Shown: positions 2 to 21,000 of the stretch, one piece after another
Layout of the letters: every line of letters begins with the position of its first letter
Numbering within the stretch: the stretch's first letter is position 1
Source: Candidatus Omnitrophota bacterium
Lineage (GTDB): Bacteria > Omnitrophota > Gorgyraeia > 1-14-0-20-64-10
Length of the DNA stretch: 64,000 bases
Assembly (NCBI GenBank): GCA_023248155.1
Contig: JAHFFE010000004.1
Coordinates: forward strand, 68,248-132,247
Direction of reading: 5' to 3'
Program-made: the position numbers and the translations under genes
Notes under the pieces: model-generated
Told to the model about the DNA's origin: nothing
Seen by the model: only the letters and a program-made list of their open reading frames with translations
Database searches by the model: none

Positions 2-3000
2 GACTTTGACTTAATCGCCGACGGGAACGCCCATGAATACATTCTGTCCATGAATGACAGCGAACTGTGGAATGGCACCATTACCGGCCTCAAGATCGTA
101 CCCTCGGATGAACCCTCGCACTATGAAATCCTCGGTGCGGCGTCGCGCCAGTCGGTCGATCTTCCGGCCGGGTCCGAATGGGGTCTTTACGGGCCGAAAG
201 AAACCAGCAAGTTCCGCTATGCGGTCGTGGTTGATGGTGTTCAGAGGGGGACGTTCGATGTGCCCTGGAATAAGACGCAGGAGAAAGAAGGCTATGCGGA
301 AATCCAGCTCAACGCTGGTGCTCATCACATTGATATCGTTGAGATGAATTTTTACGACTATCCCTACGCTTCGATGGCGGCATTTAAATCCTATGTGTCC
401 AAGACTCTTGTACGCCGGATTATGCCGGCGGCGGATCTCAACGCGGATAATTATGTGAATGAGGCGGATGCGCGGATTCTGGATACGCTGCGCTCGCGTT
501 TCGAAGCGCCGAACGTTATCGGCCTGCAGGAAGAATTCTTCTCGATTTTGGATAACGGCGACCTGACGCACCGCTTTGTGTCGCGCACGGCGCAGGGCCG
601 CAGTTTTACAAGCGACCCGGCCACGGGGCAGGTCACCATTAATGGCGTCAAACTGCAACTCGGCTATGATGAAGAGCGCGAGCTCTGGCAGGCGTCGCTC
701 TTTGGCCGTGGCAGTGTCAACGTTTATGATCAGGTTCTGCAAATCGGCACTGAGAAAATAGGCGTTACGCGCCGCAAAGACGGCAGTCTTCTTTTCACGG
801 CCTTTGAGCGCACGGAGCCGGTGACTTTTGAATCCGATCCTGCGGCTGAACAAGTCACGATCGGCACGCAGACTTACCGTATTGAACGGGATCCGGAGAC
901 CCTGCAGGTGCGTTTGTTTGAAAGCGCAGAAACAGCGGGGCCCAGCGGCTGGCAGTCAGCCGTGGCCGGCGGCGTTGCCGTGTGGGTGCGGCGCGAAGCG
1001 AGCGGGCTTGTTTTCCGCACCGGCGGCGAAGACCTGGAATTTAACCCGGAAACACGCCGGCTTTCGATCCACGAGAAAAACTACACGCTTTTTGAAAACC
1101 GTCTGGGTCAGCTGACGCTGGTGGAAGTGGATCCGGCTGATCTGGACGGCGACGGCCTTGTGACTTTTGCCGATCAGGCCTTGATGAAAGCCTCGCTGGG
1201 CCGGCAGGCCGCATGGACGCTGGAAGCGATTCAGGCGCGCAATGTCGAAGGCTTTATCCGCGGCCAGCGCAGTGATCAACTGTTTGCGGTCTACGGCAGT
1301 TCGGAAAATTACCGCATGGATTTTGATCTTTTTGCCGACAGCGCCCAGCCGGCGGGGCTTGCTTATTACAACATTATGCTGCGCGCGCAAAGCTATGACC
1401 AAAAAGCCCTGCCCGCCGATTATGAATGGCAGCTTGCCGTCGCTGTTGACGGCGATGACCGCGGCATTGTGATCATTCCCGCGACGGCAGGAAGCGTCTC
1501 CGAGGAAAGCTTGCGCACGCTCATGGCCAACGGTGCGCATACGATCAGCCTGCGCTGGCTGAATCCGCGGCCGGGAACCAGCCTGGCCATCGACCGGTTG
1601 AGGGTCGCCGAAGAAGGCGTTGATCCGGAAGCCAACCTCGTGGTGCGTTCCGGAATTCCGGAGCAGGCGATTGGCGTGCAGACCGAACATTCGGGAGCCG
1701 GCGGACAACTCATCTTACGGACAGCGGCGGGGGAAACAGTTATAACAATTCCGGCGCAGATGCCCTGGCCCGGCCCGGATGATTTTTATTGGGCGGAAGT
1801 GGATGAAAATACGGGCGCCATTCTGCGCCAGGGTTCGCTGCGTTCCGAAGATGCAGACGAAACCGCGCAATTCCTGCTGGATGTGGAAACCCTGCCGGAA
1901 GGCCGCATCCTGGCCGCGGCTTCCTGGGACGGTTTGACGGTGACGCCGTCTTTAGCGCGCGCGCTGGAACGGCTGGGTTCAAAACTGATTCGCAGCATGG
2001 ATGGCGCGCATGAATGGGCTTTTGCCGGCGTCAAAGGACTCCCTCCAGGCAGTGCTTCGGAACAGATTCAGGCGTTAACTACGGGTGACAGCCGTTTGGA
2101 TTTTGATCTGGCCATAACCGGCGGCAGCCTTGAAGACCGCCTGCGGATCAACGCGGCGGACTATGCCGTCTTCCGCCAAGGCATGAGCGACACGGCTGAG
2201 ACTCAGGTCTTTACGCTGCAGGGCAAGGATTATTATGTCAGCGAAACTTCACCGGGAACTTTTGAAGTTTTTGACGGAATTTTGACGAGCGTGCAAAAAA
2301 TCGTGGACGGCCGTCCGGCGCTGGATCTGGGCAGCCGGAGTTTCTTTGTGGAGCGCGGCGTGAACGGCGCTATCCGCCTTGAGGGCATTCTTACCGGCGA
2401 TGTTTTTAGCGACGGTCAACTCGACGGCGCAGATCAGGACTTGCTTGCGGCCAGCCGCGGCCGGTTCAGTTTGGACCGCCGTGACGGCACCGTGATTTTC
2501 AACGAAAGCCAGCCGCTGGTTTATGCCGTCGAAGTGCCGGAAGACGGCCTGTATTCCGTGGGCCTGGCGGCGCGCAATTTCTTCAAGGCAGGCCTGGATT
2601 GGCAGATCGAAGTGGACGTCTATGTGGATGATGAGATTTATCCGCGGACTTCATTTGACGTGCCTGCCGGCCTCAAAGACACGGCAAATTATGTCAATGA
2701 CCTCGATTTGACGGCCGGAGCGCATACGATCCATTTTTACGTGCGCGACCTATACGGCGAGGGCGACCACATCACGCAGAATCCGCATCCTGATCTTGCG
2801 GACCAGCCGGCCGGAGTGGGTTCCGCGCTTCTAGCCGAAAATTTTATTTTCCGGGCGCAGGGTTACCGCAGTGACATGGATCTTAACCACAATCAAAGCA
2901 TTGACACAGGCGATGAAACGATTCTAGCGGGCTTGATTCTGGCCGGGCCGGTCAGCGTGCAGACGCTCGAGCCCCTGCCCGTGAAAGTCCTGCGTCTGGC

Positions 3001-6000
3001 CGGCAAGTTTTACCGGGTCGAAATTTCCGGCACTGCCGTGACGCTGGTCTCCGGCAGTGAAAGCATCACTACGGCCGTGGATGAAGTGATTGAGAAGAAC
3101 GGCGTGTATTACCGCCTGCTGCAAGATGCCGCCGGCGAACTGGCCTTGGCGCGGGAACCGTCCGTCTACGCGTTCCGCGATCCTGCGTTTGAATTCGGCG
3201 CGAGCCGGGCGCTAGACCGTCCTGTTGTTTACGTGCGCGGCCGTTATCTGGAAATCGATCGGGCACCGGACGGCCGCTGGCGCTTTAGCGATGCGGTTGG
3301 CGAATTCCTGTCCAATAGCGAAAAAACCGAAGTTCTGATCATCGACAAGCTTTTCAAAATCCAGGGCGCTCAGGCCGGCGAATTGTCCCTTGAAGAAGTC
3401 CACGCCGAAAGCCTGAAAACGGTGGATTTGGTGATCAATCTAACGGGGGAAGACTACAAGGTCCAGCGTGAAGGCAGCCAGTGGCGTTTTATCCTCGCGA
3501 CGAATGCGGCCGTGAGTTATCTCTCCGTCGACGGTGTGGTCACGATTCAAGACAGACCCTACGCCTTGCGCTGGGATGATCAGCTTCAAGAGTTAGTTGC
3601 GGGCAATCACCCTGTTATTTCCAGTGATCTGGCCGGCCAGTCGGTGGTGCTCGACGGAGTGCTCTATACGATTCGCATGGATACGGCCGATTCGATCAGC
3701 CTGCTGGGTGAAGGTCCGGATGCGCTCGCGGGCGGGACTGTCCCCGGAAACCTTACGCTGGCAGGGGCGGTTTATGCGGTCGAAAAACTCATCGACGGCC
3801 GTTATGTTTTCTCCGGTCAGGTGCAGAGCCGGCCGGCGGAAGAACCCATCCGGTTGTTTGACGGCAAGTTTTACAGCGTGGCGCATGACGGCGAGTATTT
3901 TACGCTCAGCCAAGGCGGAAAGAATTATTCCAATCGTCCGCGTTTAGCGAATTTGCCGGAAGTCGCATCGACCGGTGATTTAACCGCGTTTGAATACTTG
4001 AAAGACGGTACGGTGCGGCCGGAGATCAGCGATGTCTATGACTCTCAATCCGGCACGCTGACGTCCGGCGTTTTTACGGTTCCGGGGGATCAAAACTATA
4101 CGTGGACCTGGGAAATGGCCGCGGGCGGCGAGAGCGGTACCCTGAAAATTCTCAATGCATCCGGAACCGCTGCCCTGCAAGAAACCATCAGTGAATCCAT
4201 GATGTCGATGCCGGGCGGCTGGACTTTAAATTTTCTCAACCCGTTTATTTCGGGCAAGCATGCCGGCTATAAAGTCAGCTACAACACCGGAACGAATACG
4301 CTTACTCTCACGCCCGCCGGCATCACCGGCAATTTTACCGCGCCGGATGGAACGGCTTATCTTTGGGGCCTGACGCGGCATGAGCGCAAAGACTCCGGAG
4401 GGCAGCCGGATACGCTCAATGACGGTTATGTTTTCCGCCTGAGTCAAGCCGGCGGGACGGGCCTTTATGAAAAAACCGGTATCGTTGCGAAGTCTCAAGA
4501 ACTGAATGCGGATTTCACGGGTCTTGTTCAAATGGCCGGCTCGGGCTGGATGGTGCATCTGGATGAAAACAGCGGCAAACTGCGTTTTGATCCCAAGCAT
4601 TCGAGCGGGAGTTTCATTTCGGCTGTGGACGATGAGCGCTACATCTGGTCGATCGATTGGACCCAGACCGGAGAATTTATGAAGGGGTGGACCTTTACGC
4701 TGGAGGATGAGGCCGGCGTCAATACGTTTACGCGTTCCGGTACGCTGAACAGTGATCCGACTTTGGCGATGCCTGAGACGTTTCCACAGCCGTTTGAGGG
4801 TGTTTACGCGCTCGCGAATGCCGTGGAATATCAAATCAGCTTTGATCCGCAGACGAACCGTATGACCCTGGCGCCGCAGCGCGTGCTGGTGGAAGAAAGT
4901 TCTGACCGGATTTTGATTGACGGGCGCTGGTTTGCGATCAGCGGGACGGATACCGGCAGTCTTGTGCTGACGAATGAAATTTTGGAAGAGGCCGGTCAAT
5001 ACCGTTTAGCCGGCGAGCGTTATGCCCAGCAGGTTGAAACGAGCATGAACGAGATGGGTTTCCCCGGGCCGCAGGTGCTGGTGCTGACGGATGAAAACGG
5101 CCGGCGCTTTGAAAGCGTTTTGAATACCACATCCGCCGCGACCGGCCAATACGGGTATAACGCCTATGGTTACTGGGGGCCGATGTATCAATACACCCAT
5201 ACGTACACGGTCACGATCAAAAACATGACGTTTGAAGTGCGCCTGCCGCCCTATGATCCCTACGACTCCAATCCGCCGCCGCTTGAAAATTATACGCTCG
5301 TGCCGTATCAGGCCGCGGCCGTAACGGCGGTTGTGCCGGCGGGGACGCTGGTGAAAATCGGCGGCGCAATTTATGCGATTACCCCCAAGCCGGGCGTTGA
5401 AAATGTCTACCTGATTAGCGACGGCCAAACGCTGACGGAAGCTGGGCTTGGCGAGCCGGTGCGTTTGAATGGCATCGAATACGTCATCCGCCGCGCGCCT
5501 TCCGGAGCGCTCAGTATGATCCAGCAGGTGCAAACGCTGTCCGGGCACCAGGTGATTTTGGAAGGTGTCCGGTATTCGGTCGAAGAGCAGACGGGCCGGG
5601 TCATTCTCTCCGATGGTGTTCAGTCGTTTGAGTCCGATGACGCCAAAGCGAAGATTACGGTCAAAGACCGCCTTTATGATCTTGTGCGCACGGAAGCCGG
5701 CGCCCTGGTGCTGGTCGAATCCGGCGTGGTCCGCTCGTACCAAACCCTGGTTTTCCAAAATAAAACCTACGATGTCCTGCGCAATAGCGACGGTTCGATT
5801 TCGCTGCTCTATCACAAGGCAACGCATGGCACGTTGGCGCCAAAAGAATCCGTCCAGATGCCTGCGCAATTGCGCTATAAAGGCGGAAATTACACCGTGA
5901 GCACGCTGGAAGACGGCCGGCTTCAGATCGAAGGTCCCGAAGGTGTTTCCACCAGCGCGGCGGAAACGGGCCTGATTGATTTTGACGGGAAACTCTGGCA

Positions 6001-9000
6001 GGCCGTGCGGCTTGCGGACGGCCGCTGGACGATTGAGGGAACATTCGAAAGCGCTCCGGCCTCCGGCCAACCGCTGTTTTTTGACGGAAAGATTTACACG
6101 CTTGCCATGCAAGCCAATCAATTCGTGCTTTCCGACGGACGCGCTCACTATACGGCGGATGTCTCGGGTTTTGTGAATTTGAACGGCCGCACGTTCTTCT
6201 GGAGCGGGACCGGGCTGGAGGATTTCCAGATGTTCAACCGGCCGTATCTTGGCAGAACCGATACGGAAATCCAGCTTGAAGGTTTGAACCTGGCCTATCA
6301 GATTGAATATTCCATGATGACGGGCCCGGTCCTTAAAATCACGGATTCTGAACGCAATGCGGTTTATACCAGCTTTACGGATCAAACCAGGGCCTTCATG
6401 GATATCCGGGGCGTTCGCTACGAGATTACGGGCAGCTTGTATGACAGCTTCGGCGAGGGGTTTGGCCTGCGGCCGGCCGCCGGAAACGTGCCGGCTTCTG
6501 CGCCCGCCGAGGAAGGAACCCGGCTTGTGGTGGAAAACCGCATTCTCAGCGTAAGCCTCAAAGCGGGCACCGGCGATATCTATCTGGCGTCCGACGGTAC
6601 GGAGACGCTGGAAGTCCGGCTCGGTGAGACGCTCAACGTCAACGGCCTTCCTTATATGCTTAGTCTGCCAGCCTCCGGCGAACTCAAATTCAGCCTGAGC
6701 AGCCGCCAGATCAGTCTGGCGCAGTTGGGGCTGGATTCGACGTCCTATCTGGCTTTTGAAACCGCGGCCGGCGAATGGGCCTTCCAGGGAACTTACGATC
6801 CCACGGGTGAATTGAGCACAAGCACGGGCGGCGGCACGCTGGTCCAAATCGGCGATCTGAAATATCACATCGAACGCCTCCCTGACGGCGGCCTCAAACT
6901 GACCGAAACCGAAGACAGCGCGCCGGTGGTTTATGAAGATCAACTCTTCCGCAGCGACTTGCAGGCCCGCACGATCCGCATTTCCGGCAAGATCTACCGG
7001 CTCGCACTTGCGGCGGACGGGGACTGGGTCTTGAGTGAAGATTACGAAACTTCGCAGGCCCTGCAGCCGGCGGTGGAAATCGGCGGCCGCAAACTGCAGT
7101 ACCGTTTAGAAGACGCGCAGGTGATCTTGACGGACGGGAAAAACAGCTTCCGCAGCAGCCGCGACGGCTCAAACGTGACGATCGACCATCGCCGCTATGC
7201 GATCCAGCGCAGCGGCAGCGCGATTACGCTTTCCGAGCCGTCTCTGCCGTACAGCCAGACGATCGATGCGCTTGGCGCAATTTGGCTGATCCGCCGCGAC
7301 GCGTCCGGAAAAATCATGGCCGACAATCCCGAAACCCAGGAAACGTTTGCCGGCGATACGGCTGGTCTCGTGATTACGATTCGCGGCGTGCAGTTTGATA
7401 TCACGGGCGAGGAAGGCCGGCGGATTTTCACGCCGCGTATTTCAGCCGAACCCACCCTAGCCGACGGCGCTTTCTTGCTGGCCGGCCGGATGTTCTTTTA
7501 CAAGACCGAAGACGGGCAATTGACCGTGACGTATGCGGACAGCGGGGCCGCGGCCGGCGCAGCGGACGAAAATGCCGGACTGATCGAAATCGCCGGTACC
7601 GTTTATCAAGTGCAGCGCACGAGCGGCCGGCTTGAATTCCATAAGCAAGCCTTTGAAGAAGCTCAGGAAATTTCAGGAGCGGTGTTTTACATCAACGGAA
7701 CGATTTATGAGGTTCAGTATGATGAGACTGCCGGGTCTTTCGAAGTACGCAGCGGCCAGAAAACTTACACCAGCGATCCGGCCACGGGGCATATTTTGAT
7801 CGGCGAAATTGCGGCTGAAATCCGCCGCGATACCGCGAGCGGCGAAATTACGATCACGGTGCCCACAGCAGCCAGCGTCAAGCGCGCCGACCAGGCGGTT
7901 GAACTCAAGGGCCAGATTTATTGGCTGACGCGCCTGGAAGCCGGCCGGTACGAAGTTTATGATCCGGCTGCGAAAACGCCGCATGCGTCCCGCCTTGAAC
8001 AAATTGACGGCGTCTGGCTACCGGTGGTGGATCTGGCCGGCAGTGTTTACCGCGTGGTCGAAGACCGCGGTGAACGCATGCGTCTGGAAGAGGTGACAGA
8101 GGAATTTATTTCCGACGACCGCTTCAAGGTGCTGGCCGGCGGTAAGGAATACACGATCGGCCAGGATTCCGTGGATCAACGTTTCTATCTCGATGACGGC
8201 ACGCACCGTTTCTATGAAACCGGGGTGGATGGCATTATCAAGATCGGCGCTGATTCCTTTAGCGTGCGTGAACTGGCCGGCCGGCGCTTGTTTAATCCGG
8301 AGGTGGTCAAGCGCGCCGATCTGGATCAAAACGGCGAATTCAACGCCGAGGATGCGCGCATCTTGACGCGCCTGGCCAGCCACTACAAAGACATCAACGG
8401 CGACGGTCTGGTCGATCAGCAGGATATTGACGCGTTAAATAAAATTATTGATCTCACGCCTGAGATCCGTGATGCGGTGCCGGATGGTCAGATTACATCC
8501 GATGATTTTACTTCGCTTGACGTCAACCATGACCGCAAGATTGATTACCGCGATGCCAACGCGCTCAACCAGGTGGTGCAGAACCGCTTTGACATCAACC
8601 GCGACGGCCTCACCTCGAGCGGCTCCGGCGTTCCGGCGACGGATGACCTGGCATTTTTCAACGCCCTGTTTAGCCAGATCCGCCAGCTGCAGGCTCAGGG
8701 CATTGTGGTCGAGCCGGCCAAACTAAAAGCGCTGGATGTCAACAATGACGGGCTGGTGACGCATGAGGACGTGACGGCGCTTGGAAAAGTGATCGGCAAG
8801 AATTTCGATATCAATGGCGACGGCAAACTCGATGACCTGGCCAATCGCAAGGATGAAAAACGGCTCGACGATGTGATCAGCGCGCTCGCTTTGAAGATCA
8901 AACAGAACGAATTGACGCTGGCCGATGTGAACCGCAACGGCAAGGTCGATGACAAGGACCGCTCCGACCTTTCGGAATCGATCCGCAAGTATACCCAGCT

Positions 9001-12000
9001 CGCGGTTGCCGCGGATTATGACGCCAGCGGCCTTTTTGATTACGGCGACCTCGTAGCCCTGCAGCGGGATGTCGGCGAAATCCGCCGCGGCAGCCTGCTC
9101 AGCCCGCAGCTGCTCTCGCGCGCGGACATCAATAATGACGGGCGCGTGGATGACCGTGACTGGAGAACGCTGGAGCAGGGCCTGGCTTCGCACCGGGATG
9201 TCAATGAAGACGGCCGCATCGACAGCAAAGACAGCGAGGTGCTGGAACGCTATCTGAATTTCACAGCCGGCGAAATTATTCCGGCCCGCGAAATCCGGCT
9301 CGAGACGCCGGAGGGGCTCGAGAGCCAAATTACGGGCAGTCAGTCCATTGTGCTGGATGACGAGCGCTATGTTGTCTCAAAGAACACCGAAGGCGCTTAT
9401 GTGTTGACGTCCCGCGACGAGACGTTTAACGCCTATGGCGGAATCAATATCGTGGAAATCGGTGAGCACATTTACGACATCTACGAAGATCCGGACGGCA
9501 AGATCCGTCTGGTGGATCAGGAAGCGCGCACGCATCAGAGCATGCACCGGGCGGATTTCGTCATCCGGCTGGGTGAGCGGGAATATGACGCTTATTTCAA
9601 AGATTACGGCCGTTTTGAATTTAAATCCGCCGAGTGCTTTGACGGAACCGAAAACTGCGAAACGGCGCTGAGCGGTTTTGACGACAAAGTAACACTGCAA
9701 AATCAGGTGTTTATCGTTGAAACCGACTCGCTGACGCGTCAGGCCGCGCTCAAAGCGGCCTCGATGCGCAGCCTGAAACGCGCGGACCAGGTCATTGAAC
9801 TGGAAGGCAAACGCTACGAAGTGGTCAATCATTTTGACGGCAGCTATACGTTCAAAACGGATGAGTTTGAACAGCGCTCCGACCGCGATCAGAAACGCGT
9901 CAAACTGGACGGAATTTATTATGACATCCACGAAGATCCGCTGACGGGCCATGTGCAGCTGGCTGAACAGCATGCGATCAGCCGGGTGCTGGCTGACCAG
10001 GTCATCCGCATTCAGCGCAAAGATTCGCTTTCCTTGTCCGAAATTTATGCCGGGGCGGATACGCGGGCGCTTTTCCTGGCCAGCCAGGGCGGACAGAAAA
10101 TCGGCAGTCCGGTCGTTTATGACGATTCTTACCTAGTAAATTTCAACCTTGACGGCACGACGACCTTTACGCATGAGAAGACCGGCACGAAATACACAAG
10201 CGGCCGCTCCCAGGAAGACGGCACTTCCGTTGTGACGATTGACCGGATGGCTTTCCGTATTTTCTCCGATTACGAAAACGGCGGGATCTATATCGAGCAG
10301 GATCATGAAAAACTGGGCTCCGATGCGGGCGCCGGTGCGGGCCGCGGCCAAGTCACGTTCTTGAAAGCCGGCGAGCCGGTGACTTACGAATGGATTTATG
10401 ATGATGCGACCGGCAAGCTCAAGATCAACGGTGAATGGGTCAACCCCGAAACCAATACAGCCTTGCTCGACGGCCAGCAATTCCTGATTAATTTTGATCC
10501 GGAAAAAGGCCGCCTGGCCATGGAACAGGCCTACCTGCGCTCAAGCCGCGTGGCCGATCAGCGTTTGATTCTGGAAGACACGTTGTTTAATGTTTCGCAC
10601 AACAAGGACGGCTCTTTCTCGCTCTTTGACGGCGAGACCAGCTTCCGCACCAACCCGGTGTCCCGCAAGGTGACGATCCGCGGCCGGGTTTACGATGTGA
10701 TTGAAAACAGCTACAGCGGATCGATCACGCTGGCCGAAGAGTACAGCCGTGAAAGCAAGCCGGTCTATGATCAGGTCATTGAACTCAACGGCAAAAATTA
10801 TTTTGTGCGTGAAAATACGCAGGATGGCATCACGGAGTTCATCCACGCTGACGAGACGATCCGCTCCACGGCCAGCCGGACCTGGCAGGACGCATCCATT
10901 GATTTTACCAAGGATAAGATGCCGCAGGGCTGGGCGCCGGAGACGGGCAGCTGGCGCATCATGGCCGGCCGCGCCGAATCGCTGGTGCAAGGCCAGCAGG
11001 CCTCGTTTGCCCGCACCGGGCTTGTGACCGAAACTGATTTTACATTGTCGGTCGATCTCTCCTTTGAAATCCTCAGCGATGAACCCGCCGCGCCTGCCGG
11101 CACAGCCGATGAGCGTCTCTGGGAAGGCTCAGTCCTCTTTAATGTGATGGATCGCGATAACGCTTACGCGGCCCGCCTGTTTGAGCGGGGCGGCAGCCGG
11201 TTTGTGGGGTTATACAAGCTGGTTCACGGGATTGAGTATCCGCTGGCCTTGGAGCGCGAACTGCCGTTTGAGTTCAGCACGGAGACGGATTACCGCATGC
11301 AGATCCGTGTGGAGTCCGGCAAAATCACGCTGGCCATGAATGATCAGCCTCTGCTGGAGGCCCAGGACCATTATTTCACCGGCGGCGCCGTGGCGCTCGC
11401 TGGCAAGGGCCGCGATGTTCAGTTTGACAACATCGTTCTGCATCACGCGCACGAACTGGATCAGCCGCGGCAAGTCACGATAGATGACCATCTTTACACG
11501 ATTTCACGGCGTGATTTTACCGAGACGTATGATCTGGATATCAACCGGGACGAGGCGTTCAGTCAAGGCGACAGCGGCGCCCTGCTGGAAGCTTTGCTCA
11601 GTAACGGGCTTGTCAGCGAAGAAGACTTGGCTCGTTACCGCGCGCAGGGCGGAACCGCGGGATTGGGCGCTAGCGGCGGCGAGGGCGAGGGATCGTTTGC
11701 GGGCGGAGAGAGTGCCGGAGGGGGCGCAGGCATGCCGGCCGGCGGGGAAACTGGCGCAGGTTCAGGCACGTCCTATCAGGTTTCGGAAGACGAAGGCGTG
11801 GATTTGAGCGGCCTGCATGTCAGCATTCCGGGCCGCCTGCCGCGTTCGACCGTGGACATTACCGGCGACGGCCGCGGTGATATTGCGGACATCAAACGTA
11901 TCCAAGAAATTCTGTTTGCCGTGCGCCGCGGTGAAATTGTCCAGCCGCGTGATTACGAGAAGGCGGATGTTACCGGGGATGGAAAAGTTACGGATGCCGA

Positions 12001-15000
12001 CTGGAAAGCGATTGAAACCGCGCGGCTCAAAGCGGCGCGCAGTGACGTGACCCAAGATGGCGTTACGGATTACCGCGATGTTGAAGCGATCCGCCACATT
12101 GACCGCGAAGAAGTCATCCGGGCCACGGCGTCTGAAATCGCGAAAGCGGACCTGAACCACAACGGCGCGCTGGACGCTGCGGATGTGGCGCAGCTTGAGC
12201 AGACCATGAAGCATATGCATGAGCTGGATCTTGATTTCGACGGCAAGATTGTTTTGGCGGACGAACTGGCGGCTTTTGACAAAGCCAAAGAATTTTACGA
12301 TCTGGGCTTGAGCCTGAGCGCCGAACAGTTTGCGCGGGCGGATATCGATCAGGACGGTTTGATCACGCCGGCGGATCTGCGCATTTATGAAAAACTGACC
12401 CAGCAGTGGGATGCTGCCGGCACGCCGCGCAATGTTTTTGATCTGACCAACGACGGCGTGGTGGATGGCAGCGATGAGCAGCGCATGGTTGATCTTTTGA
12501 TGGCCGAGGGCCTCAAAATCACTGAAGAAGAAAAAGTCCTCGGCGATATCAACCGCGACGGCATAACGGACAGCCGTGATTTGGATCTCTATACGCTGAT
12601 TTATCAAAATGAAAACCGGCTGAATATTGATGGGGTGGCGGGCATCAATGCGCAGGATGTTAATAAAGCCGCCTCGATCCGCAGCTGGCTGGCCGCGCGT
12701 AATGCGCCGGTGCGCGGGCTGACTCGGTTGAAAGATCTTCAAGATGCGGGCGTGGACACCGCCAATCCGGATGCGGTTGCCGCGCATCTCAACCAGCTGA
12801 TTTCAACCACGCAGGCCAAGATTGCCGACGTCAACGGCGATGGTCTGATCGATGAAAAAGATTTGGCCCGCGCCCGCGAAGTCGAGGAAATCGTCAGTTA
12901 CGGTATGGACCGCGGCTTTGCGCTGGACATGCGTTTCGATCTTAACCAGGACGGCAAAGTCGATGACAGTGATCTGGCGGCGCTGATGACCGCCATTTCC
13001 AACCAGATTGTGCATGATGTGAATGCGGACGGCGCGGTCAACCAGACGGATGTGGATCTTTTTGACCGCATGATCCGCTATCAACGCACGGGCTATACGG
13101 TGATGCCGGATGATCTGGAGAATGCCGACATTGACCATAGCGGCGCTTTTGATGCGGGCGATGTGACGAATTTCACAAACGCGCTGCCATTCTACCGCGA
13201 TGTGACCGGCGATAAACGCCTGGATAGTGCGGATCTGCTCGCGGTCCGTAAAGCCAAGGCCTTGCAGGAAGCCGGTTACACGGACCGCTCCTCCGGCGAG
13301 CCGGTTTACCGGCCGCTGACGCTGGATCTGCTGCGCCGTGCGGATCTGACCCGCGATAACGTGATCGACAGCGCGGATAGCGCTTTTCTGGCGCAGGCCA
13401 TTCAAGGCAATCTGGATCTGACCGGTGATTTTGCCGTGACGATCGAGGACCAGCTGCGGCTCGGCCAGTATTCGCCGTGGGGGCTGGGCGTGAAGCAAGT
13501 CGAACGTGCAGACATTGATCAGGACAATCTTATCGGCGCGCGTGATTATGCCGGCCTGCTGGCGGCGCTCGGCGGCATTGACCGCGCGGATGTCACCGGT
13601 GACGGCAAGGTCGATGCCAATGATCTCAAAGATTTACGCCGGCTGGTCGAAGCGGCCAAGCTGAAAGTGACCGGCCGCGATGTGGTGCTGGCGGATGTGA
13701 CCCGGGACCGCAAGGTCGATGTGGCGGACGTGACGAAAGTCATTGAAAGCGTACGGGCTTTGCAGGCCTTTGACATCACCGGCGACCGCATGGTCAATGC
13801 GCTGGATGAACAGGCGCTTTTCTTCCTGTGGGGCGTCGAGCCGCTGGATCTGTTAAACCAAAGCGAAGCCGCTTTGGCTGAGCTGGAAGCGCGTGCGGCC
13901 GCTGCGGTCGACGCCGGGGAAGCCCGCGCCATCGAACGCGCGGCCCAAGGTATTTTTAATCAGGCCCTGACCATGGAAGAAACCGGCAAAGCGATTGCGC
14001 GCATGCTGCTCAGCCCCAGCGAATCGCAACAGATGCTGCAGGAAATTGCGCAGATCATGGCGCGTCTTTCCGGACACCGCAGCGCCATCCAAGCCGTGCT
14101 CGCTGCGCTCACCGGACAAGCAGCGCTGGCCCCCAGCCTCGCAAGCCAGCTGGAAGATGCCCTCAAAGTCCTCAAAGAAACTTTGGTTGAAGCGCGCGCG
14201 GCTGAAAGTTCGGATGCGGTGGATTCATTGGTGCTTTCGGTCGAGCCCGTGATTCAAAATATGCGTACACTGGCCGGGACGCAGGGACAGGTCCAGCCAG
14301 GAACTCAGCCGGACCTGTCCCTGGCTGCCTATCTGGATCAGGGCGAGGCTGTTTTTGCTGAACTCTCCGCGTTGGCGCAGTCCGTGCGGCAGGCGGAAGA
14401 GACGATGGCAGGCCTTGCCGAACAAACCCGCAATGCGCTGGCGCTGGCGGATTGGATGAGCCGGCAGTTTGAAGCCGGGGCAGATACCAGCCCTGCTTTT
14501 GTGTCGCTGCTGGCTTTTGGCCGGAATGCCCTTGCCGAGTCGCAGCGTGCGGCCCAGGCTGCGCGCGCCCGGGCGTCGGGTCTTCTGGCACAGATGCCGG
14601 CGAATACCGCGGCCCTGCAGGCCCAGGAAACTTTGCGGGGCGCCCAGAGCCGTTTGGATCAAGCGCTGGAAACCCTCACGCAAAGTTTGCATGAGGCCCA
14701 GGCTGCCGAGAACGGTGCCATGCCTCTGGTGAAGGAAGCTCAGAGCAAACTCGACCACATGCGGATTTTGGCGGCGCAGTCCGTGACCACGGCCCTCGCA
14801 GGCACGGCCGCAGCGCTCGTGACCCAGCTGGCCCGGTCCAATCTCGGCCGCGAACCGACACCGGATGAAATCAGAGCCGCCGTGGCGGGCCTCGCGGCAG
14901 GAGAAACACTGGAACAGACGGCGGGCCGCTTGCTGGCAATTTCCGATGCGGCCCTGATCAAAGCCGCGCTGGATCCGCTGCGGGATAAAACCTCCCTGGA

Positions 15001-18000
15001 TGAAAGTGCTCTGGGCGCGCGCTACCAGGCCATGACCGCAGGCCTCTGGCCATTGGAAAGTGCGACTCAGTCCGTGATGAATTATTTTGGACCGGCCATG
15101 GATTGGCCGGCCGAATTGGCACGCTTGCAGCGGGGGGCCGACGAAATTCTCGCAGATTTAGAGGCGGCTCTCGCTGAAATGGACCGCTTGCTTTATTTGA
15201 ATCCCGGCCATGCGGAACTGAACGCCAATGCTCTGCTCATGACCGATGTTCTGAATCAGGCGGCCGGCCTGGCTGAAGACCTGCGGGAATTCCCGCAGGT
15301 GCTGACGCCGGAAATCGAAAATTTCAACCTTGCCAAAGCCACGGCCGAAGCCAGCCTCGCGTCTGACGAAAATCTGCAGGTCCATCTGGCCGCTGCCGAG
15401 CTTTTGACCGGACGCATCGACGCCATGACTGAAACTGCGGATAGGGCGCAAGCGCTCCGCTGGCTGGAAACTTTTGAAACCACGGCCGCCGGTCCTGTGC
15501 CTCAGCAGATCAACGCACTTGTGGCGGCCGCCAGAACCAAAGTGGAGAGCGCGCAGCAGGTGGAGGCCGGCATCCGTCTGCTTGAAGCTGCGGCCGAACA
15601 AACAGACGCAACCGCCGAATTTATCCGCGCGCAAGCCGGCACGATGAACCGTGAAATGCTGATCGGCGTCGTGGATCAGCTTCTGGGGCAGTTGGAGGCG
15701 GCCGCGGCACAGGCTTCAGGCGTGATCAGTCAGTATCCGGACACGGCGGCGTTCAGCCGTTTGAGCGGCCGTCCGGAAGCGCTGATGGCCCAGATTAAAG
15801 CCGCTCACGAAGCCATGCTGGCTGAATTATTCCATGAGCGGGTGGTCACAAATCGCGGGGCCGATTCCGTTGAAACCGCCGCGCTTTTGGCCGGTGCTGT
15901 GAACCGGTTGGGCGCAATCGCTGCGGACAATGGAGTGGCAATTCATGAATTGCCACTACGGATGCTTTATACGCTGATAAATAACACACGATCCAAAGTC
16001 GCTGTGCTGGAAAGTGAACTGGCTACGGCCGTCAATGCCGGCGTGGATGCCGGGGCTAATTTGGCCTCAATTCGCGACTACCTGGCCCGTATTGACCAAA
16101 CTGCGGCGGCCTTGAACGCCCGCGCTGCGGCTTTGGGCGCGGATGTGAATGCGCCGCTGACGGCGGCTGACAAGAATACCGCTTTAATTTCGATTCTCAG
16201 CGGACTTGAAACGCAATCCCAGGCTGCGAATGCGACGGCCTTGACCCTCAAACAAATCCAGCAGGCTGTGCGCGAGATCCAGGGACAAGTCCAGTTAGCC
16301 GCTCAAGTGCCGGGGACTCAGGGAGAGGTCCAGTTAGCGGCTCAGATGGACCTGTCCCTGCTCACGGTTAAAAATGCACTGCTGCGTGCCACCGGCGGCG
16401 CGTCTCTGGTGGAAGAAACGGTTTATCTGGCCGCGGCCGGGCGCTTGTCGCTGGTGCTTGCCAACAACACGAATGATTTGACCTTATTGAACCGGCTCGA
16501 AGTCTTTGCCGGTGATTTTGCGGTTCAAGCCGCCGCGGCCCGCGCAAAATTGGCTCAGCTTGCTGCCGCAGACAGCACGGGCGTCTATGGCTTCAGCGCC
16601 AATCTGCCTTCACTCGCCGCGCTCGAAGCCGATACCGGCAAAACCAAGGCGCTTGTGACCGAAAGACTGGCGCATTTGGCCGGACAGCCGCAGGCTTGGT
16701 CCACGGATCCGCTGGTGCGCGCGCTGCATGAAGCCGAAGCCCTGCAAAAAGCCATCATGGTCCAACAGGGACAGGTCCAAACAACTCAACAGGACCTGTC
16801 CCTTAAGACTTCGCTCGCGATCCTGGAAGCGATTGGGGAGGCCGTGACCAGCACGATCGCGGCTTTGACGGAATCCGCCCGTCAGGATGCGGCCGCTTTT
16901 GAAGACCGCCAGCGGCTGCTTGAGAATTACCGCGGTCGTTTTGATTTCTCCGAACAAGCCGCTCTGCTTCAAAGTGAAGAAACCATAGCGGCGGCGGAGC
17001 AGGCGCGTGCAGCCGAGCAAGCCGCATTCGAGCGTCACCTCGCCCTGCTGCAGGACCTTGAAACCCAGGATGAAACCCTGGCCCGGGCTTTGGCGGATAT
17101 GGCGATTGACGATGCTCAAGAATTGCGCGATTTGGGCGCTGAGCCGGATCTTGCGATCGTGGAACGCCTGGAAATGCAGGCTGAATCCGCGGAAGCGCGG
17201 CAGGATTCCGGAGCGCAGATTGAAGAACTGGCCGAGGGCCTCGCCGCCTGGATCGAACGGCTGGAGACCATGACGGCCGGTCTGAATACCAACGAGGAGT
17301 TGGCGGTGCGTGAAGGCTTGCTTGATCTGGCGGATGCCGTTACGGCGCATTGGCAGGAACTGCTGACCGAGCCGTCTGCGGCCGAGGTGCGCCAAAAAGT
17401 CGATGCGCTGCGCAGCGTTGTGACGCAAGACCTGCAGGCGCTTGAGACCACAAAAGGGGCTGCGGATGCGGCCGCCGATTGGCTGAAAGAAAACGGCGCG
17501 CATCTGACCGAACTGGACCGTCTGATTGGCGAGGCCATGGCCGCATTTGAGACTGCTGCGAAGACCACCGGTGTAGGGGCGGGTTCTAAAACCGCCCAGG
17601 ATGCCGCTGCTTCCGCGCGCCGGCTCTATGAAGAACTCGAAACGCTTCAGGATGAATTTATCGCGCTTACAGCCGAAGTCGAAAATGCCTCAGCCTATGA
17701 AGACGACATCAAGGCCATGATGACCGCGCGTGAGGAGTTCCGCGCGGAACTGGACGGCCTGGCGGAAACACAAATCCTGACGCAGATCCAAACCTCGCAG
17801 GGCGCGGATGTCACCCAACTCCTGAATACGATTGAAGCGCAGATGACGGCCAATCTCAATGCCCTGCGCAATCTGGACCCCGAAGAATTCAAAAAATCCA
17901 CGGCCGAACTTTTGGCGGGTCATCCGGAATTGGGCGGCCTCAAACTCGAACTGCCGGATGCCGGAGCCCTGGATGAAAACTCTCAGCCCGACCTCTTGCG

Positions 18001-21000
18001 GGCCTTGCTTGAGGGCGCCCGGACGCCGGCGGCCGGCGGCACGCCGCTGCGCGGTTATTATCTGGGTTATCCGGCCACAGCGACGCTGATGAACCTTGAA
18101 AATCTGATCAGCGTTCTCGCGGCCCAGCAAGGCTCCGGAACCATTTTCGCGGAAACTTGGCTGACGAGCATGCGTGAGCGCATGAACGCCTGGTTCAACC
18201 GCATGTTCGGGATGGAGGCTGAACTTGAACAGTACCGCGTCCGCATGATCGTTGACAATTCCGCTGCGGGCATCGAATGGTCACGCGTACTCGATGGAAA
18301 TATTAGCGCGGTCAATCAGCTGATCAGCGAAGCGTCAGGCGCTGCCTCAGGCGCGGATGCGGTCAATAAACTCCGCCAGGCGGAGCGTATGATCGCGCTG
18401 GTCGATGCCCAGCAGCGAGCCGTGCAGGCGCTCTGGGACGATGTGCGCGCGCGCGGTGAGATGAACAGCATCTGGTATAAGACGCGTACGATTTGGCAAA
18501 GCCTGCCGCCGCTGGATGTTTACGGGAAGTATCTGGACCAAATGGAAATCCTAAACGAGGGCGGTGAAATTTTACCGGGTGAAATCGTCGCCTATGGAAA
18601 ACATGTGAGTGATTTTGCCGCGGAACTGGCGAAAAAAGTCAAAGACCTGAATCTGGCCGCCGACTCGGCGCGCCAGGCCGCGGCCGGCAAACTGATAGGC
18701 TCGCTCAAATCGAGCCTGCAGGCGGACCAGCGCGTGATGGATAGTCTGTTGACGGAGATTCGCGGAACCTCTGATGCCTGGGTGCGCGAGGCGGCCCGGC
18801 GCGAGATCCACACCCTGCTGGAAAAGGCCGGCCAGCGCCTGGCGGATGCCAGCGTGCAGGCCGACGAGTGGCTGGATGCCACGACCTTTACAGTGTGGAC
18901 CCGGTCCATTCTGCGGGAAAACGGCATCGACCCCGATCTGCCCGAAAATCAGAAGATCTTTGAAGAGAAGAGGGCGAATGTGCGCCGGAACGAAAAACTG
19001 AAACTGGATGGCGAGCGCCGCGCGGCGGCTGCCATGTTGAACGGCTTGCGCGTGCTGGCGGAACAAGCCGGGGCCGCAGTCATGGACAGCCTGATTTTTG
19101 AAGGCGGCAGCAAACTGCTGACCGCTGAATTGAGTGAAATCAGAACACTGCTCGGCGTCTTTGCCGCGCGCAGCGAATCTGAGCGCGATGCCGTCAAGAC
19201 CGAGGCCTATCTTGAAACTGCACGCATTCTGCGTGATAAAGCGCTGGTTTTGATGAATAAGGTGCGTGAGCAAGCGGCGGCCGAGGACGCCACGCTGGAA
19301 GACCGCAATGAAGTCGCCAAAGCGGAGGCCCAATGGGATCTGATCAACACTGCCGCCGGCTATCTGGAAAATAACCGTTCAGTTCAAACAACTCAGGCGA
19401 CCGGCGGTGATTCCCTGACGAACGAGGCGCAGCGATTCTTTGAGGCCGGCAATGCTCTTTATGGGGTGCTTGATGATATGCTGGCTCGCCGGCAAGTGCA
19501 GCTGGCGGGGCCCTATGACGATCTCAGTAACGATTCCGCGTTTACCATTTTACTCGCATACGGGGATCAAATCACAGCCGACCTGACGGCCCTGCGGGAT
19601 CGTATTCAGGCCACGAGCGGTATTCTCTCAAACGCGTTTGTGAATACAAACATCTGGCTGCAGCACCTCAGCGGCATCATGGAAAATGCGCGGACCCGCG
19701 CCGCAGCGTTTTTCACCATCGGCGACCCTTCCTCGATCCGGCCCCTGGACGCCATGCGGACACTCAACAGACTGTCCGGCAGTATGACAGCGGTCATCAA
19801 GGAAAGCTTAGAATCGCACGAATTCGCTGCGTACCGGGCGGAGAACTATCGCGCGTTTGAAAGTCTGGCTCAGGGACTGCGCCGGACGCTGGATCAAAAA
19901 TACCAGCAGCTGGATACGATCTACCGGGCGGATCGCACGGCGGCAGCCCTGGCCGAACTGAAAGACGCCGCGCTGGAAGTCTTCAAACCCGCGGCCCGCT
20001 TAAATGAACTGCGCATGGCTTTCGGTGAAATGGCCGAGGTGGCGCTGGCGGATTTAACCCAGGCTAGCGTCGTCGAATTTTTACGGACAGAGATCGAACG
20101 CTCCCTGTCTGCGAATGAAGCGGCCCTTATCACGCGCGCGGCCGAAGAAGTCCAGCAAGGGTTGATCCGCGCCGCGTCCGTCTCGGCCGTGGGCATCGCG
20201 CGAAACCATACGAAGTACGAAGTGGTCTTTAATAATACGACACAGCGGCGCGAACGGACGGTGATCGATTATGCGCTCAGTGCCGGCGGTACAGCTGCCT
20301 TCCGCCAGACGCTGGCGCAGGCCTCAGATTTGCAAAAGCCACTTTCTGAAATGAACGAGCTTGCCATTCTCGAAAAAATCCGCGAAACCAACGGCGTTTT
20401 TGCCACGGACTATGTCAAACGGCAGGCGCAAATGTTTGAACGCTGGCGCCTCAAATTTATTCCGCAGGACAATGCCTTGAGCGTCACGTGGAGTATGCTG
20501 ATTTCGCGTGAACTCGAGGAAGAGTTTAACCGCTATACGAATATTCGCGATACGCTGGGCACTTCGGCCCTGGACGGCTATGCCGATGAGTTCTCTTATC
20601 ATCTCAGCATGCTCAACTGGGCGGGGAGCGTGATTGCACGGGAAGGCACGAATACGTTCAGGAACAAGAGCGTTGAAATCGACGGCACAAACTGGGCGGT
20701 GCGGGTGGATGCAGTCGATGTTCTCGCCAAAGCAGTGGATAAGGAAACTTCGCCGGAAAAACTTGAAATGCTGGTGCCGATGCTCAAGGAACAGCTGGAC
20801 GCGTTGGAAATTTTAAATGGCTCGGGGATGTCTCTTGGGAAAGACAATTACCACATCGGCGAAGCGGCGTATTTTGCCGTGCAATCCTTCAGCTCTGAAG
20901 TTAAGACCCGGGCCTATGACATTTATCTGGAGGCGCTCAAGCGCCTGGAGTTTTTCCGCATGCTGGAATTGGGCGGGGAGCAGTCCGTGGCCGATATCCG

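What the first reader, a model, noticed from the sequence alone, without database searches (positions are those of the whole stretch)
8310..13830. Unusually long arrays of dockerin/EF-hand-like Ca-binding loops (about 31 copies in three arrays)
Canonical dockerins have exactly two such 22-residue Ca-binding segments. Here D-[VIL]-[ND]-x-[DN]-G-x-[VI]-[DN]-x-x-D loops, each followed by a short amphipathic helix, are concatenated 9, 18 and 4 times, with one further isolated copy at about 27,250. The long arrays could give a Ca-dependent rigid rod. Alternatively they could act as multivalent cohesin-binding sites, if a cohesin-bearing partner exists elsewhere in the genome.
Basis: partly seen in the sequence, partly recalled or inferred. 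Interest (0 to 1): 0.65.

Follow-up and report, generated by a model that had tools for sequence, protein, structure and literature searches.

The report
Tandem dockerin arrays in giant protein
The roughly 31 calcium-binding loops are real: they form about 15 back-to-back dockerin-like modules inside one enormous surface-protein gene that fills the whole 64-kb window, a kind of "dockerin-type giant protein" already reported from Omnitrophota bacteria, though what the arrays do is still unknown.

Summary
A loop motif occurs 28 times in aa 2770-4610 (shuffles give 0.5), and 3 more copies carry insertions, giving 31. Pfam Dockerin_1 matches all three sub-slices (E 7e-29, 2e-16, 2e-27; 16 stretches). 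Asp is invariant at loop positions 1 and 12.

The entire window is one stop-free frame (nt 2-64000, at least 21,333 aa) that runs off both ends. Its domain set is dockerin arrays, ILEI, a DUF1080-like domain, a C39-like peptidase and a late transmembrane cluster. Its best homologues are Omnitrophota fragments. Both point to the published "Dockerin-type giant proteins".

An Omnitrophota orthologue (P0007) is colinear and keeps a loop at each of the 30 tabulated positions, with few indels. Homologous fragments carry up to 72 loops.

Loop spacing alternates between about 25 and about 36 aa, so canonical two-loop dockerins are fused with no linker. The closest solved relative is the C. thermocellum double-dockerin (8X39).

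No cohesin was seen in the sequences scanned with Pfam. The cohesin-recognition positions are the least conserved. I favour Ca-dependent spacer or adhesive segments, which is inferred and not shown.

Verdict: a new member of a known kind, of moderate interest.

The parts
2..64000 (+). Single stop-free reading frame of 21,333 codons, open at both ends. It is a fragment of a giant gene and contains every other part listed here.
   Evidence: 0 stops in this frame against 263-1141 in the other five; colinear homology to an Omnitrophota protein fragment, P0007; no DNA tandem repeats, no Rfam family and no tRNA.
8312..9277 (+). Dockerin array 1 (aa 2771-3092). It has 10 Ca-binding loops, at aa 2773, 2797, 2840, 2864, 2912, 2936, 2975, 3005, 3042 and 3066, which is about 5 modules. 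Net charge is -24.
   Evidence: (Dockerin_1 7e-29, 6 stretches).
9299..10921 (+). Spacer between the arrays (aa 3100-3640): unannotated beta-hairpin-like repeats with the motif h-x-h-x-G-x-x-Y-x-h...D-G-x-h-x-h.
   Evidence: no Pfam family at E<=0.1; motif map; conserved in P0007.
10910..11500 (+). DUF1080 / 3-keto-disaccharide-hydrolase-like domain (aa about 3637-3833) immediately upstream of array 2.
   Evidence: PF06439, 16.5-17.6 bits, below the cut-off; the aligned region of the distant relative L001 scores 28.8 bits, above the cut-off, and is likewise followed by a dockerin array.
11537..11611 (+). Isolated loop plus helix (aa 3846-3870, DINRDEAFSQGD). It is followed by a Gly-rich linker (nt 11654-11779) that is absent from the orthologue.
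11849..13837 (+). Dockerin array 2 (aa 3950-4612). It has 20 recognisable loops, at aa 3952, 3989, 4015, 4050, 4076, 4114, 4147, 4182, 4276, 4313, 4339, 4376, 4400, 4448, 4472, 4504, 4530, 4565 and 4591, plus a degenerate one near 4208. That is about 10 modules fused head to tail. A loop-poor stretch lies at aa 4222-4273. Net charge is -53.
   Evidence: 1.8e-16 with 4 stretches; 1.6e-27 with 6 stretches; AF2 model of aa 4274-4399.
25442..25702 (+). Three further dockerin-type loops (aa 8483, 8507, 8544), about 300 aa downstream of a C39-like peptidase domain (nt 24323-24571).
   Evidence: Dockerin_1 4.2e-10; Peptidase_C39 2.1e-10.
27257..27322 (+).
   Evidence: Pfam does not call it.
434..2944 (+). 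Single F-hand-like segments at aa 145, 380, 801 and 960 that flank beta-rich CBM-like domains, with an ILEI domain (aa 600-679) between them.

Best explanation
The 31 loops form about 15 non-cellulosomal dockerin modules. Each module is a pair of F-hand Ca-binding loop-helix segments. The modules are fused head to tail without linkers into two arrays.

The arrays lie in the exported part of a giant protein (more than 21,333 aa) of the 'Dockerin-type giant protein' kind known from Omnitrophota.

The arrays most likely bind about one Ca2+ per loop outside the cell. They then fold into a chain of small three-helix modules. This chain would act as a Ca-dependent structural spacer or stalk, and possibly as a generic adhesive surface. 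It would hold and separate the neighbouring carbohydrate-binding-like beta modules (beta-hairpin repeats, DUF1080-like and CBM-like domains).

Shown here: the repeats, their dockerin family signature, their placement in a giant ORF, their conservation module by module in an orthologue, and the kinship with Omnitrophota giant proteins.

Inferred only: Ca binding, export, and the spacer/adhesion role.
For: - Family signature: Pfam Dockerin_1 scores 60-100 bits per slice, in 16 stretches. D is invariant at loop positions 1 and 12, where canonical EF-hands (my own knowledge) have Glu at 12. The ligand pattern N/T/D at 3, D at 5, G at 6 and D at 9 is present.
- Solved relatives: a profile of two-module windows finds the C. 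thermocellum double-dockerin (8X39/8X3A) as best hit, E 1e-14 over the full profile, followed by type I dockerins.
- Model: the AF2 model has pLDDT 80.7 and shows loop-H1-short H2-loop-H3 twice. H3 of module 1 ends at the residue before the next loop.
- Giant ORF: 0 stops in 21,333 codons.
- Architecture: the domain set (dockerin arrays, ILEI, DUF1080-like, C39-like, late TM cluster) matches the published description of Dockerin-type giant proteins.
- Taxon: the best homologues are partial Omnitrophota proteins.
- Fold, Ca sites and length look constrained, not one binding face. The orthologue P0007 is colinear over more than 5,000 aa. It has an aligned loop at each of the 30 tabulated loop positions, with few indels. 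Identity between orthologues is highest at Ca ligands and core positions (0.64-1.0). It is lowest at positions 7, 10 and 11 (0.21-0.29).
- Other evidence: related fragments carry up to 72 loops in 2,796 aa, which is hard to reconcile with one partner per module. The net charges of -24 and -53 would be roughly offset by bound Ca.
- Export: all 26 Cys sit in 13 short-range pairs.
Against: - No experiment or Ca-containing model supports Ca binding or rigidity.
- pTM is 0.38, so the inter-module geometry is not predicted. The 681-aa prediction failed (pLDDT 40).
- The Foldseek match of the model to solved dockerins is weak: E 0.2-0.7, TM 0.41-0.51, rmsd 11-12 A.
- Variable surface positions are also what rapidly co-evolving cohesin-dockerin pairs would show.
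- The rest of the genome is unavailable, so cohesins cannot be excluded.
- No signal peptide or N-terminus is in the window, so export is inferred only from the Cys pairing, the domain types and the literature.
Confidence: 0.55

Rival explanations
1. Inverse scaffoldin. Each dockerin module is a specific docking site for a cohesin-bearing partner protein, so the giant protein recruits about 15 partners (enzymes, adhesins or neighbouring giant proteins) onto the cell surface.
For: - The modules are dockerins by sequence.
- In the solved C. thermocellum double-dockerin, at least the first module binds a cohesin (review PMC12484212).
- Surface positions differ from module to module, as expected if each had its own partner.
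- Module number and order are conserved in the orthologue.
Against: - No Cohesin (PF00963) match was seen in the Pfam scans covering the 21,333 aa or the 9,000 aa of relative L001 scanned. None appears among the Pfam annotations on record for the genes of the Omnitrophota locus L004, where the longest gene was not looked up.
- No Omnitrophota cohesin is reported in the papers read.
- There is no Ser-Thr pair at positions 10/11.
- The two halves of a module show no two-fold symmetry at surface positions: 0.094 identity against 0.096 for random loop pairs.
- The modules have no linker between them, which leaves little room for a cohesin of about 150 aa on every module (inference).
- Homologues with 40-72 loops would need dozens of partners.
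Confidence: 0.2
2. Ca-driven export ratchet. The acidic loops stay unfolded in the low-Ca cytoplasm and fold on meeting extracellular Ca2+. That would prevent back-sliding and help pull the enormous polypeptide out, as RTX repeats do for type I secretion substrates. Any spacer role would be secondary.
For: - The arrays are strongly acidic, with one potential Ca site per about 30 aa.
- Loops are scattered along the first 9,100 aa rather than confined to one place.
- A C39-like peptidase domain, a type associated with ABC exporters, lies in the same protein.
- The analogy with RTX proteins rests on my own knowledge and on the discussion in 10.1101/2023.11.21.568195.
Against: - At most three short, low-scoring loop-like matches lie in aa 9,100-21,333 (aa 11192, 15253, 15278). 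Most of the protein would therefore lack the ratchet.
- The secretion route is unknown.
- Conservation of the exact module number is not required by a ratchet.
- This explanation is not mutually exclusive with the best one.
Confidence: 0.15
3. The repeats are not a real feature: chance matches or low-complexity Asp-rich sequence in a spurious ORF.
For: None beyond the short length of the motif.
Against: - 28 matches against 0.5 expected.
- Pfam E-values down to 7e-29.
- An orthologue with 49.5% identity across the region and loop-by-loop correspondence.
- A 64-kb stop-free frame.
Confidence: 0.01

Closest known systems
Dockerin-type giant proteins of Omnitrophota (West-Roberts et al. 2023, bioRxiv 10.1101/2023.11.21.568195). 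Also the nine-dockerin giant ORF of Aquinicolibacterium lacustre (Seymour et al. 2023, PMC10066038) and the 'dockerin-bearing' class with up to 15 PF00404 copies (bioRxiv 10.64898/2026.06.07.730766).
   Same: - A giant ORF with many dockerin/EF-hand repeats.
- ILEI, DUF1080 and C39-like domains, and transmembrane segments late in the protein.
- Split dockerin-like helices flanking CBM-like beta domains.
- The best sequence relatives are Omnitrophota MAG proteins.
   Different: - No TSP3, discoidin, GNAT or SecA domains were detected inside the window. The gene continues beyond both window ends, so they may lie outside.
- The source genome is not identified, and one related contig is labelled Planctomycetia.
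- In the passages read, the papers describe domain counts, not the linker-less contiguous arrays or their conservation.
C. thermocellum double-dockerin dDoc_0689 of an S8 protease (PDB 8X39/8X3A; Chen et al. 2024, Protein Sci e4937, as summarised in PMC12484212).
   Same: - It is the best solved sequence relative of the two-module profile, E 1e-14, aligned over all four loops.
- It has two dockerins in tandem with a stable interface.
- Distant homologues of the array (P0002-P0004) are also S8 proteases carrying long dockerin arrays.
   Different: - It has only two modules, with a linker about 12 residues longer between them (alignment).
- It belongs to a cellulosome with known cohesins.
- Here there are 5 and about 10 modules with no linker and no known cohesin.
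Type I dockerin module (Pfam PF00404; e.g. 1OHZ_B, 2CCL_B, 1DAQ).
   Same: - Two loop-helix segments per module with the Ca-ligand pattern D1, N/D3, D5, D9, D12.
- A short linker helix and a module of about 60-70 aa.
- These are the top Foldseek hits.
   Different: - The modules are internal and tandem instead of a single C-terminal copy.
- Thr occupies position 3 in 10 of 28 loops.
- There is no Ser-Thr recognition pair and no internal symmetry.
- The structural superposition of the model is poor.
EF-hand proteins with four sites (calmodulin; Entamoeba CaBP1, 1JFJ).
   Same: - 12-residue Ca loops flanked by helices.
- The two-module profile aligns over all four sites of 1JFJ at E 9e-12.
- Pfam EF-hand families match parts of the arrays.
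   Different: - Asp, not Glu, at loop position 12 in 28/28 loops.
- EF-hand scores are far below the Dockerin_1 scores.
- The spacing alternates 25/36 aa rather than a uniform ~36 aa.
- The context is extracellular.
Ca-rigidified extender regions of giant adhesins (RTX adhesins with BIg repeats) and thrombospondin type 3 repeats. This comparison rests on my own knowledge and on citations.
   Same: Long runs of acidic Ca-binding units in very large surface proteins, thought to give Ca-dependent stiffness and reach.
   Different: - The folds are unrelated: beta-sandwich or disulfide-braced loops there, against helical F-hand pairs here.
- No RTX or TSP3 Pfam match was found in the window.

Membership tests
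Dockerin type I module (PF00404) | Sequence match to the family model above the curated threshold | tested here: met
   100.2, 60.5 and 95.9 bits for the three sub-slices (cut-off 22.9), with 16 matched stretches.
Dockerin type I module (PF00404) | Two duplicated ~22-residue segments, each a 12-residue Ca loop (ligands at 1, 3, 5, 9, 12; Asp at 12) followed by a helix | tested here: met
   D1 28/28, D12 28/28, position 5 D/N/S, position 9 D/T/N, G6 in 20/28; spacing is bimodal, 24-26 and 33-37 aa; a helix follows each loop.
Dockerin type I module (PF00404) | Compact three-helix fold that superimposes on solved dockerins | tested here: inconclusive
Dockerin type I module (PF00404) | Binds a cohesin module (the functional definition) | not testable with these tools
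   The genome is not available. No PF00963 match was seen in the window, in the 9,000 aa of L001 scanned, or among the Pfam annotations on record for L004 genes.
Dockerin type I module (PF00404) | Conserved recognition residues (Ser-Thr at 10/11, basic pair at 17/18) and near-identical duplicated halves (dual binding mode), as in C. thermocellum | tested here: not met
   positions 10/11 are A/D/S/Q/Y and A/R/E/K/G; within-module identity at surface positions is 0.094 against 0.096 for random pairs.
Dockerin-type giant protein of Omnitrophota (West-Roberts 2023) | Giant ORF (tens of thousands of aa) | tested here: met
   at least 21,333 codons without a stop, open at both ends. The full length is unknown.
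Dockerin-type giant protein of Omnitrophota (West-Roberts 2023) | Numerous dockerin/EF-hand repeats together with ILEI, DUF1080 and C39-like domains | tested here: met
   ILEI 3e-8, Peptidase_C39 2e-10, DUF1080-like 17.6 bits (weak, but homologous to a 28.8-bit match in L001).
Dockerin-type giant protein of Omnitrophota (West-Roberts 2023) | Bacterial thrombospondin type 3 repeats, discoidin and GNAT domains | tested here: not met
   no such Pfam matches in the 21,333 aa. They may lie outside the window.
Dockerin-type giant protein of Omnitrophota (West-Roberts 2023) | C-terminal transmembrane anchors followed by SecA-like domains | tested here: inconclusive
   a hydrophobic cluster at aa 18415-18945. 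No SecA match in aa 19000-21333. The ORF continues beyond the window.
Dockerin-type giant protein of Omnitrophota (West-Roberts 2023) | Encoded by an Omnitrophota genome | tested here: inconclusive
   the best hits, including the colinear orthologue P0007, are Omnitrophota MAG proteins. The source contig was not found. One relative contig is labelled Planctomycetia.
Canonical EF-hand (PF00036/PF13499) | Helix-loop-helix with Glu at loop position 12 | tested here: not met
   Asp in 28/28 loops. The EF-hand Pfam scores (20-44 bits, mostly partial) are far below the Dockerin_1 scores.

The most novel reading that the evidence does not exclude
The linker-less dockerin arrays could be multivalent docking rails. 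They might engage cohesin-like or CBM-like beta-sandwich modules of the same or neighbouring giant proteins, in cis or in trans. The giant proteins would then zip into a Ca-dependent surface lattice or an extended attachment organelle used for cell-cell contact or predation. That would be an inverse, self-assembling version of the cellulosome principle.
Probability: 0.1. Interest if true: 0.75.

Novelty: new member of a known kind. Interest (0 to 1): 0.4.

Why it matters
Giant genes of Omnitrophota and their relatives are thought to mediate attachment to host or prey cells, but almost nothing in them has a tested function. The dockerin arrays are among the few recognisable parts.

This window adds a further example. 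Within the arrays, a diverged orthologue keeps a loop at every tabulated position (49.5% identity across the region). So the length and order of the arrays are under selection. They are not a recent repeat expansion.

Cellulosome research lists multi-dockerin modules (up to septuple) as structurally and functionally unknown. Arrays of 5 and about 10 linker-less modules are compact, expressible test objects. They could answer two questions. Can tandem dockerins form Ca-dependent structural elements? Do they need cohesin partners?

Tried and rejected
- AF2 on the whole second array (681 aa, alignment of 5 sequences): pLDDT 40, unusable.
- Identifying the source contig or genome: the protein-pattern scans of genome contigs and metagenome contigs returned only distant relatives at 22-28% identity, never the window itself.
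- The search for homologous proteins with the array returned only 6 hits and missed the orthologue, because common dockerin words saturate the candidate list. With the TM region and the C39 region it found nothing.
- PDB sequence search with the DUF1080-like segment: no hit.
- DNA-level repeats, Rfam and tRNA scans: nothing. The arrays are therefore not recent DNA duplications, and no RNA feature overlaps them.
- Chen et al. 2024 (PMC10949318) is not held, so I relied on a review.
- Minus-strand ORFs overlapping the region (for example 11762-12787 and 12803-13498): considered and rejected as genes. They are shadows of the giant + strand frame, which alone has homologues.
- RTX or TSP3 identity of the loops: rejected, with no Pfam match and a helix after every loop.
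- Chance occurrence: rejected.

Full report
**What is at the coordinates**

The window has no ordinary gene structure. The + strand frame starting at nt 2 has no stop codon in 21,333 codons. The other five frames have 263-1141 stops. The ORF runs off both ends, so the window is an internal fragment of a giant gene. GC is about 56% overall and 64% at third codon positions. There are no DNA tandem repeats, Rfam families or tRNAs. The finding region, nt 8310-13830, is aa 2770-4610 of this translation.

**Checking the observation**

- A strict loop regex finds 20 copies in the window.
- A relaxed regex finds 36 copies, 28 of them inside aa 2770-4610. Residue shuffles of that region give a mean of 0.5 and a maximum of 3.
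- An HMM built from the copies and iterated adds degenerate loops.
- Pfam Dockerin_1 matches the three sub-slices at 7e-29, 1.8e-16 and 1.6e-27, with 6, 4 and 6 stretches. EF-hand families match more weakly.
- In 28 clean loops Asp is invariant at positions 1 and 12. Position 3 is N/T/D, position 5 D/N/S, position 6 mostly Gly, and position 9 D/T/N. Positions 8, 13, 16 and 19/20 are hydrophobic, which is the pattern of an amphipathic exit helix.

**Anatomy of the arrays**

Spacing between successive loops alternates between about 24-26 aa and about 33-48 aa. The same bimodal distribution, with peaks at 24-26 and 33-37, holds across 153 homologous proteins.

Pfam aligns the long-spaced pairs as one canonical dockerin: loop, helix 1, short linker, loop, helix 3. 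The short spacing is therefore the junction, where helix 3 of one module runs straight into loop 1 of the next.

Array 1 (aa 2771-3092) has 10 loops. After beta-hairpin-like repeats, a DUF1080-like domain, one isolated loop and a Gly-rich linker, array 2 (aa 3950-4612) has about 20-21 loops. The arrays have net charges of -24 and -53.

**Structure**

AF2 on all of array 2 with five sequences failed (pLDDT 40). I then built an alignment of 78 two-module windows taken from the window and from homologues.

The model of aa 4274-4399 has pLDDT 80.7. It shows loop-H1-short H2-loop-H3 twice, and the junction helix ends at the residue before the next loop. pTM is only 0.38, so the relative placement of the two modules is not defined.

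Foldseek against the PDB ranks C. thermocellum type I dockerins first, but weakly: E 0.2-0.7, TM 0.41-0.51, rmsd 11-12 A. I count the fold test as inconclusive.

A sequence profile of the same alignment finds a 'Serine protease' chain, 8X39/8X3A, as the best solved relative. The E-value is 1e-14 and all four loops align. Dockerins and four-site EF-hand proteins follow.

According to a 2025 review, 8X39/8X3A corresponds to the C. thermocellum S8-protease double-dockerin. [quoted passage not shown] The review lists triple to septuple dockerins as known from genomes, with unknown structure and function.

**Relatives and the identity of the gene**

- phmmer of array 2 against 1.8 billion representatives gives 193 hits. 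The best, P0007, is a 5,283-aa partial protein from an Omnitrophota MAG.
- Most other top hits looked up are also partial Omnitrophota proteins, some annotated as dockerin- or DUF1080-containing.
- P0007 is colinear with window aa 233-5585. Across the finding region it is 49.5% identical. It has a loop aligned at each of the 30 tabulated loop positions, with few indels inside the arrays. The arrays are therefore old, and module number and order are conserved.
- Related fragments carry many more loops, for example 72 in 2,796 aa and 53 in 3,985 aa.
- A distant relative on a 229-kb contig labelled Planctomycetia is also one uninterrupted ORF over the 27.6 kb held. It shows DUF1080 followed by a dockerin array.
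- An Omnitrophota contig carries five consecutive long genes, the first four with Dockerin_1 hits on record.
- Within the window, Pfam also finds ILEI (aa 600-679) and a C39-like peptidase (aa 8108-8190). A hydrophobic cluster lies at aa 18415-18945.
- This combination matches the 'Dockerin-type giant proteins' of West-Roberts et al. 2023. Seymour et al. 2023 reported a giant ORF with nine non-cellulosomal dockerins. A 2026 preprint reports up to 15 PF00404 copies in one protein.
- TSP3, discoidin, GNAT and SecA domains were not found in the window. The source genome could not be located. Membership is therefore likely but not complete.

**How it probably works**

No Cohesin match was seen in the Pfam scans of the window, of the 9,000 aa of L001 scanned, or among the Pfam annotations on record for the L004 genes. 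None of the Omnitrophota papers read reports cohesin partners.

Between the window and P0007, identity is highest at Ca ligands and core positions (0.64-1.0). It is lowest at positions 7, 10 and 11 (0.21-0.29), and positions 10/11 are the classical cohesin-recognition positions. The two halves of a module are no more alike at surface positions than random loops, 0.094 against 0.096.

Several further points favour a structural reading:
- the absence of linkers between modules;
- the conserved array length;
- homologues with dozens of modules;
- the acidic charge, which bound Ca would offset;
- the position of the arrays between beta-rich modules that look carbohydrate-binding.

I therefore favour Ca-dependent structural spacer or adhesive segments of an exported giant protein. 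The Cys pattern supports export: the 21,333 aa contain only 26 Cys, all in 13 C-x4-12-C pairs. This did not occur in any of 20,000 random placements.

All of this is inference. Variable surfaces would also fit co-evolving partners, and the rigid-rod idea is not supported by the model's low pTM. Rivals are an inverse scaffoldin that recruits cohesin-bearing partners, and a Ca-driven export ratchet analogous to RTX repeats.

**Verdict**

The family assignment (dockerin-type F-hand pairs) is supported. The functional readings remain open.

The feature is a new member of a known kind. What this analysis adds is a description of the linker-less array architecture, its loop-by-loop conservation in an orthologue, and the link to the solved double-dockerin. 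Interest is moderate.

Noticed in passing
window 2-64000 (+): The whole window is one stop-free frame of 21,333 codons, open at both ends. The other frames have 263-1141 stops. The finding sits inside a giant gene.
   Followed up: yes
window, aa 3212-19504 (nt 9635-58513): Only 26 Cys occur in 21,333 aa, and all sit in 13 short-range pairs (C-x4-12-C). This happened in 0 of 20,000 random placements. It suggests local disulfide hairpins and hence an exported protein. One pair (aa 19500/19504) lies after the hydrophobic cluster.
   Followed up: partly
window nt 434-2944 (aa 145-981): Single F-hand-like loop-helix segments (aa 145, 380, 801, 960) flank beta-rich CBM-like domains, for example aa 835-915. 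This resembles the 'split dockerin around a CBM35-like barrel' unit described for Omnitrophota giant proteins.
   Followed up: partly
window nt about 3000-10921 (aa about 1000-3640): Many copies of an unannotated beta-hairpin-like motif (h-x-h-x-G-x-x-Y-x-h...D-G-x-h-x-h). It is confined to the first 4,000 aa, has no Pfam match, and is conserved in P0007.
   Followed up: partly
window nt 13859-24001 (aa 4620-8000): A stretch of about 3,400 aa directly after array 2 is rich in Ala (up to 25%), Leu, Glu and Gln and has almost no Pfam matches. It is probably a long helical or coiled region. Its first part is conserved in P0007.
   Followed up: no
window nt 24323-24571 and 25442-25702: A C39-like peptidase domain (2e-10) lies in the middle of the giant protein, followed about 300 aa later by three dockerin loops. 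The word-index search found no database homologues for this region.
   Followed up: partly
window nt 55244-56836 (aa 18415-18945): A cluster of five hydrophobic, transmembrane-like segments lies late in the window. No Pfam match and no homologues were found, and no SecA domain was found downstream within the window.
   Followed up: partly
window nt 11654-11779 (aa 3885-3926): A Gly-rich low-complexity linker lies between the isolated loop and array 2. It is absent from the orthologue P0007.
   Followed up: no
window nt 11855-13807 (aa 3952-4602, array 2): Thr occupies Ca-ligand position 3 in 10 of 28 loops (DVTGDG, DLTxD), all of them in array 2. The orthologue often has Asn at the same sites.
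   Followed up: no
L004 1-31046 (Omnitrophota contig JADGBR010000015.1): Five consecutive same-strand genes of 3026, 3985, 942, 1013 and 14271 aa. The first four carry Dockerin_1 hits on record, and the 14,271-aa product was not looked up. This is either a real cluster or one giant gene broken by frameshifts or assembly errors.
   Followed up: no
P0002-P0004: Proteins of ordinary size (about 1,100 aa) combine an N-terminal anchor, an array of 14-17 dockerin loops and a C-terminal S8 protease. This echoes the S8-protease double-dockerin of C. thermocellum.
   Followed up: no
window minus strand, e.g. 5006-6943, 11762-12787, 56896-58992: Long antisense ORFs (up to 699 aa stop-free) lie opposite the giant frame, and one minus frame has only 263 stops. 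I treat them as shadow ORFs caused by codon composition, not as genes.
   Followed up: partly
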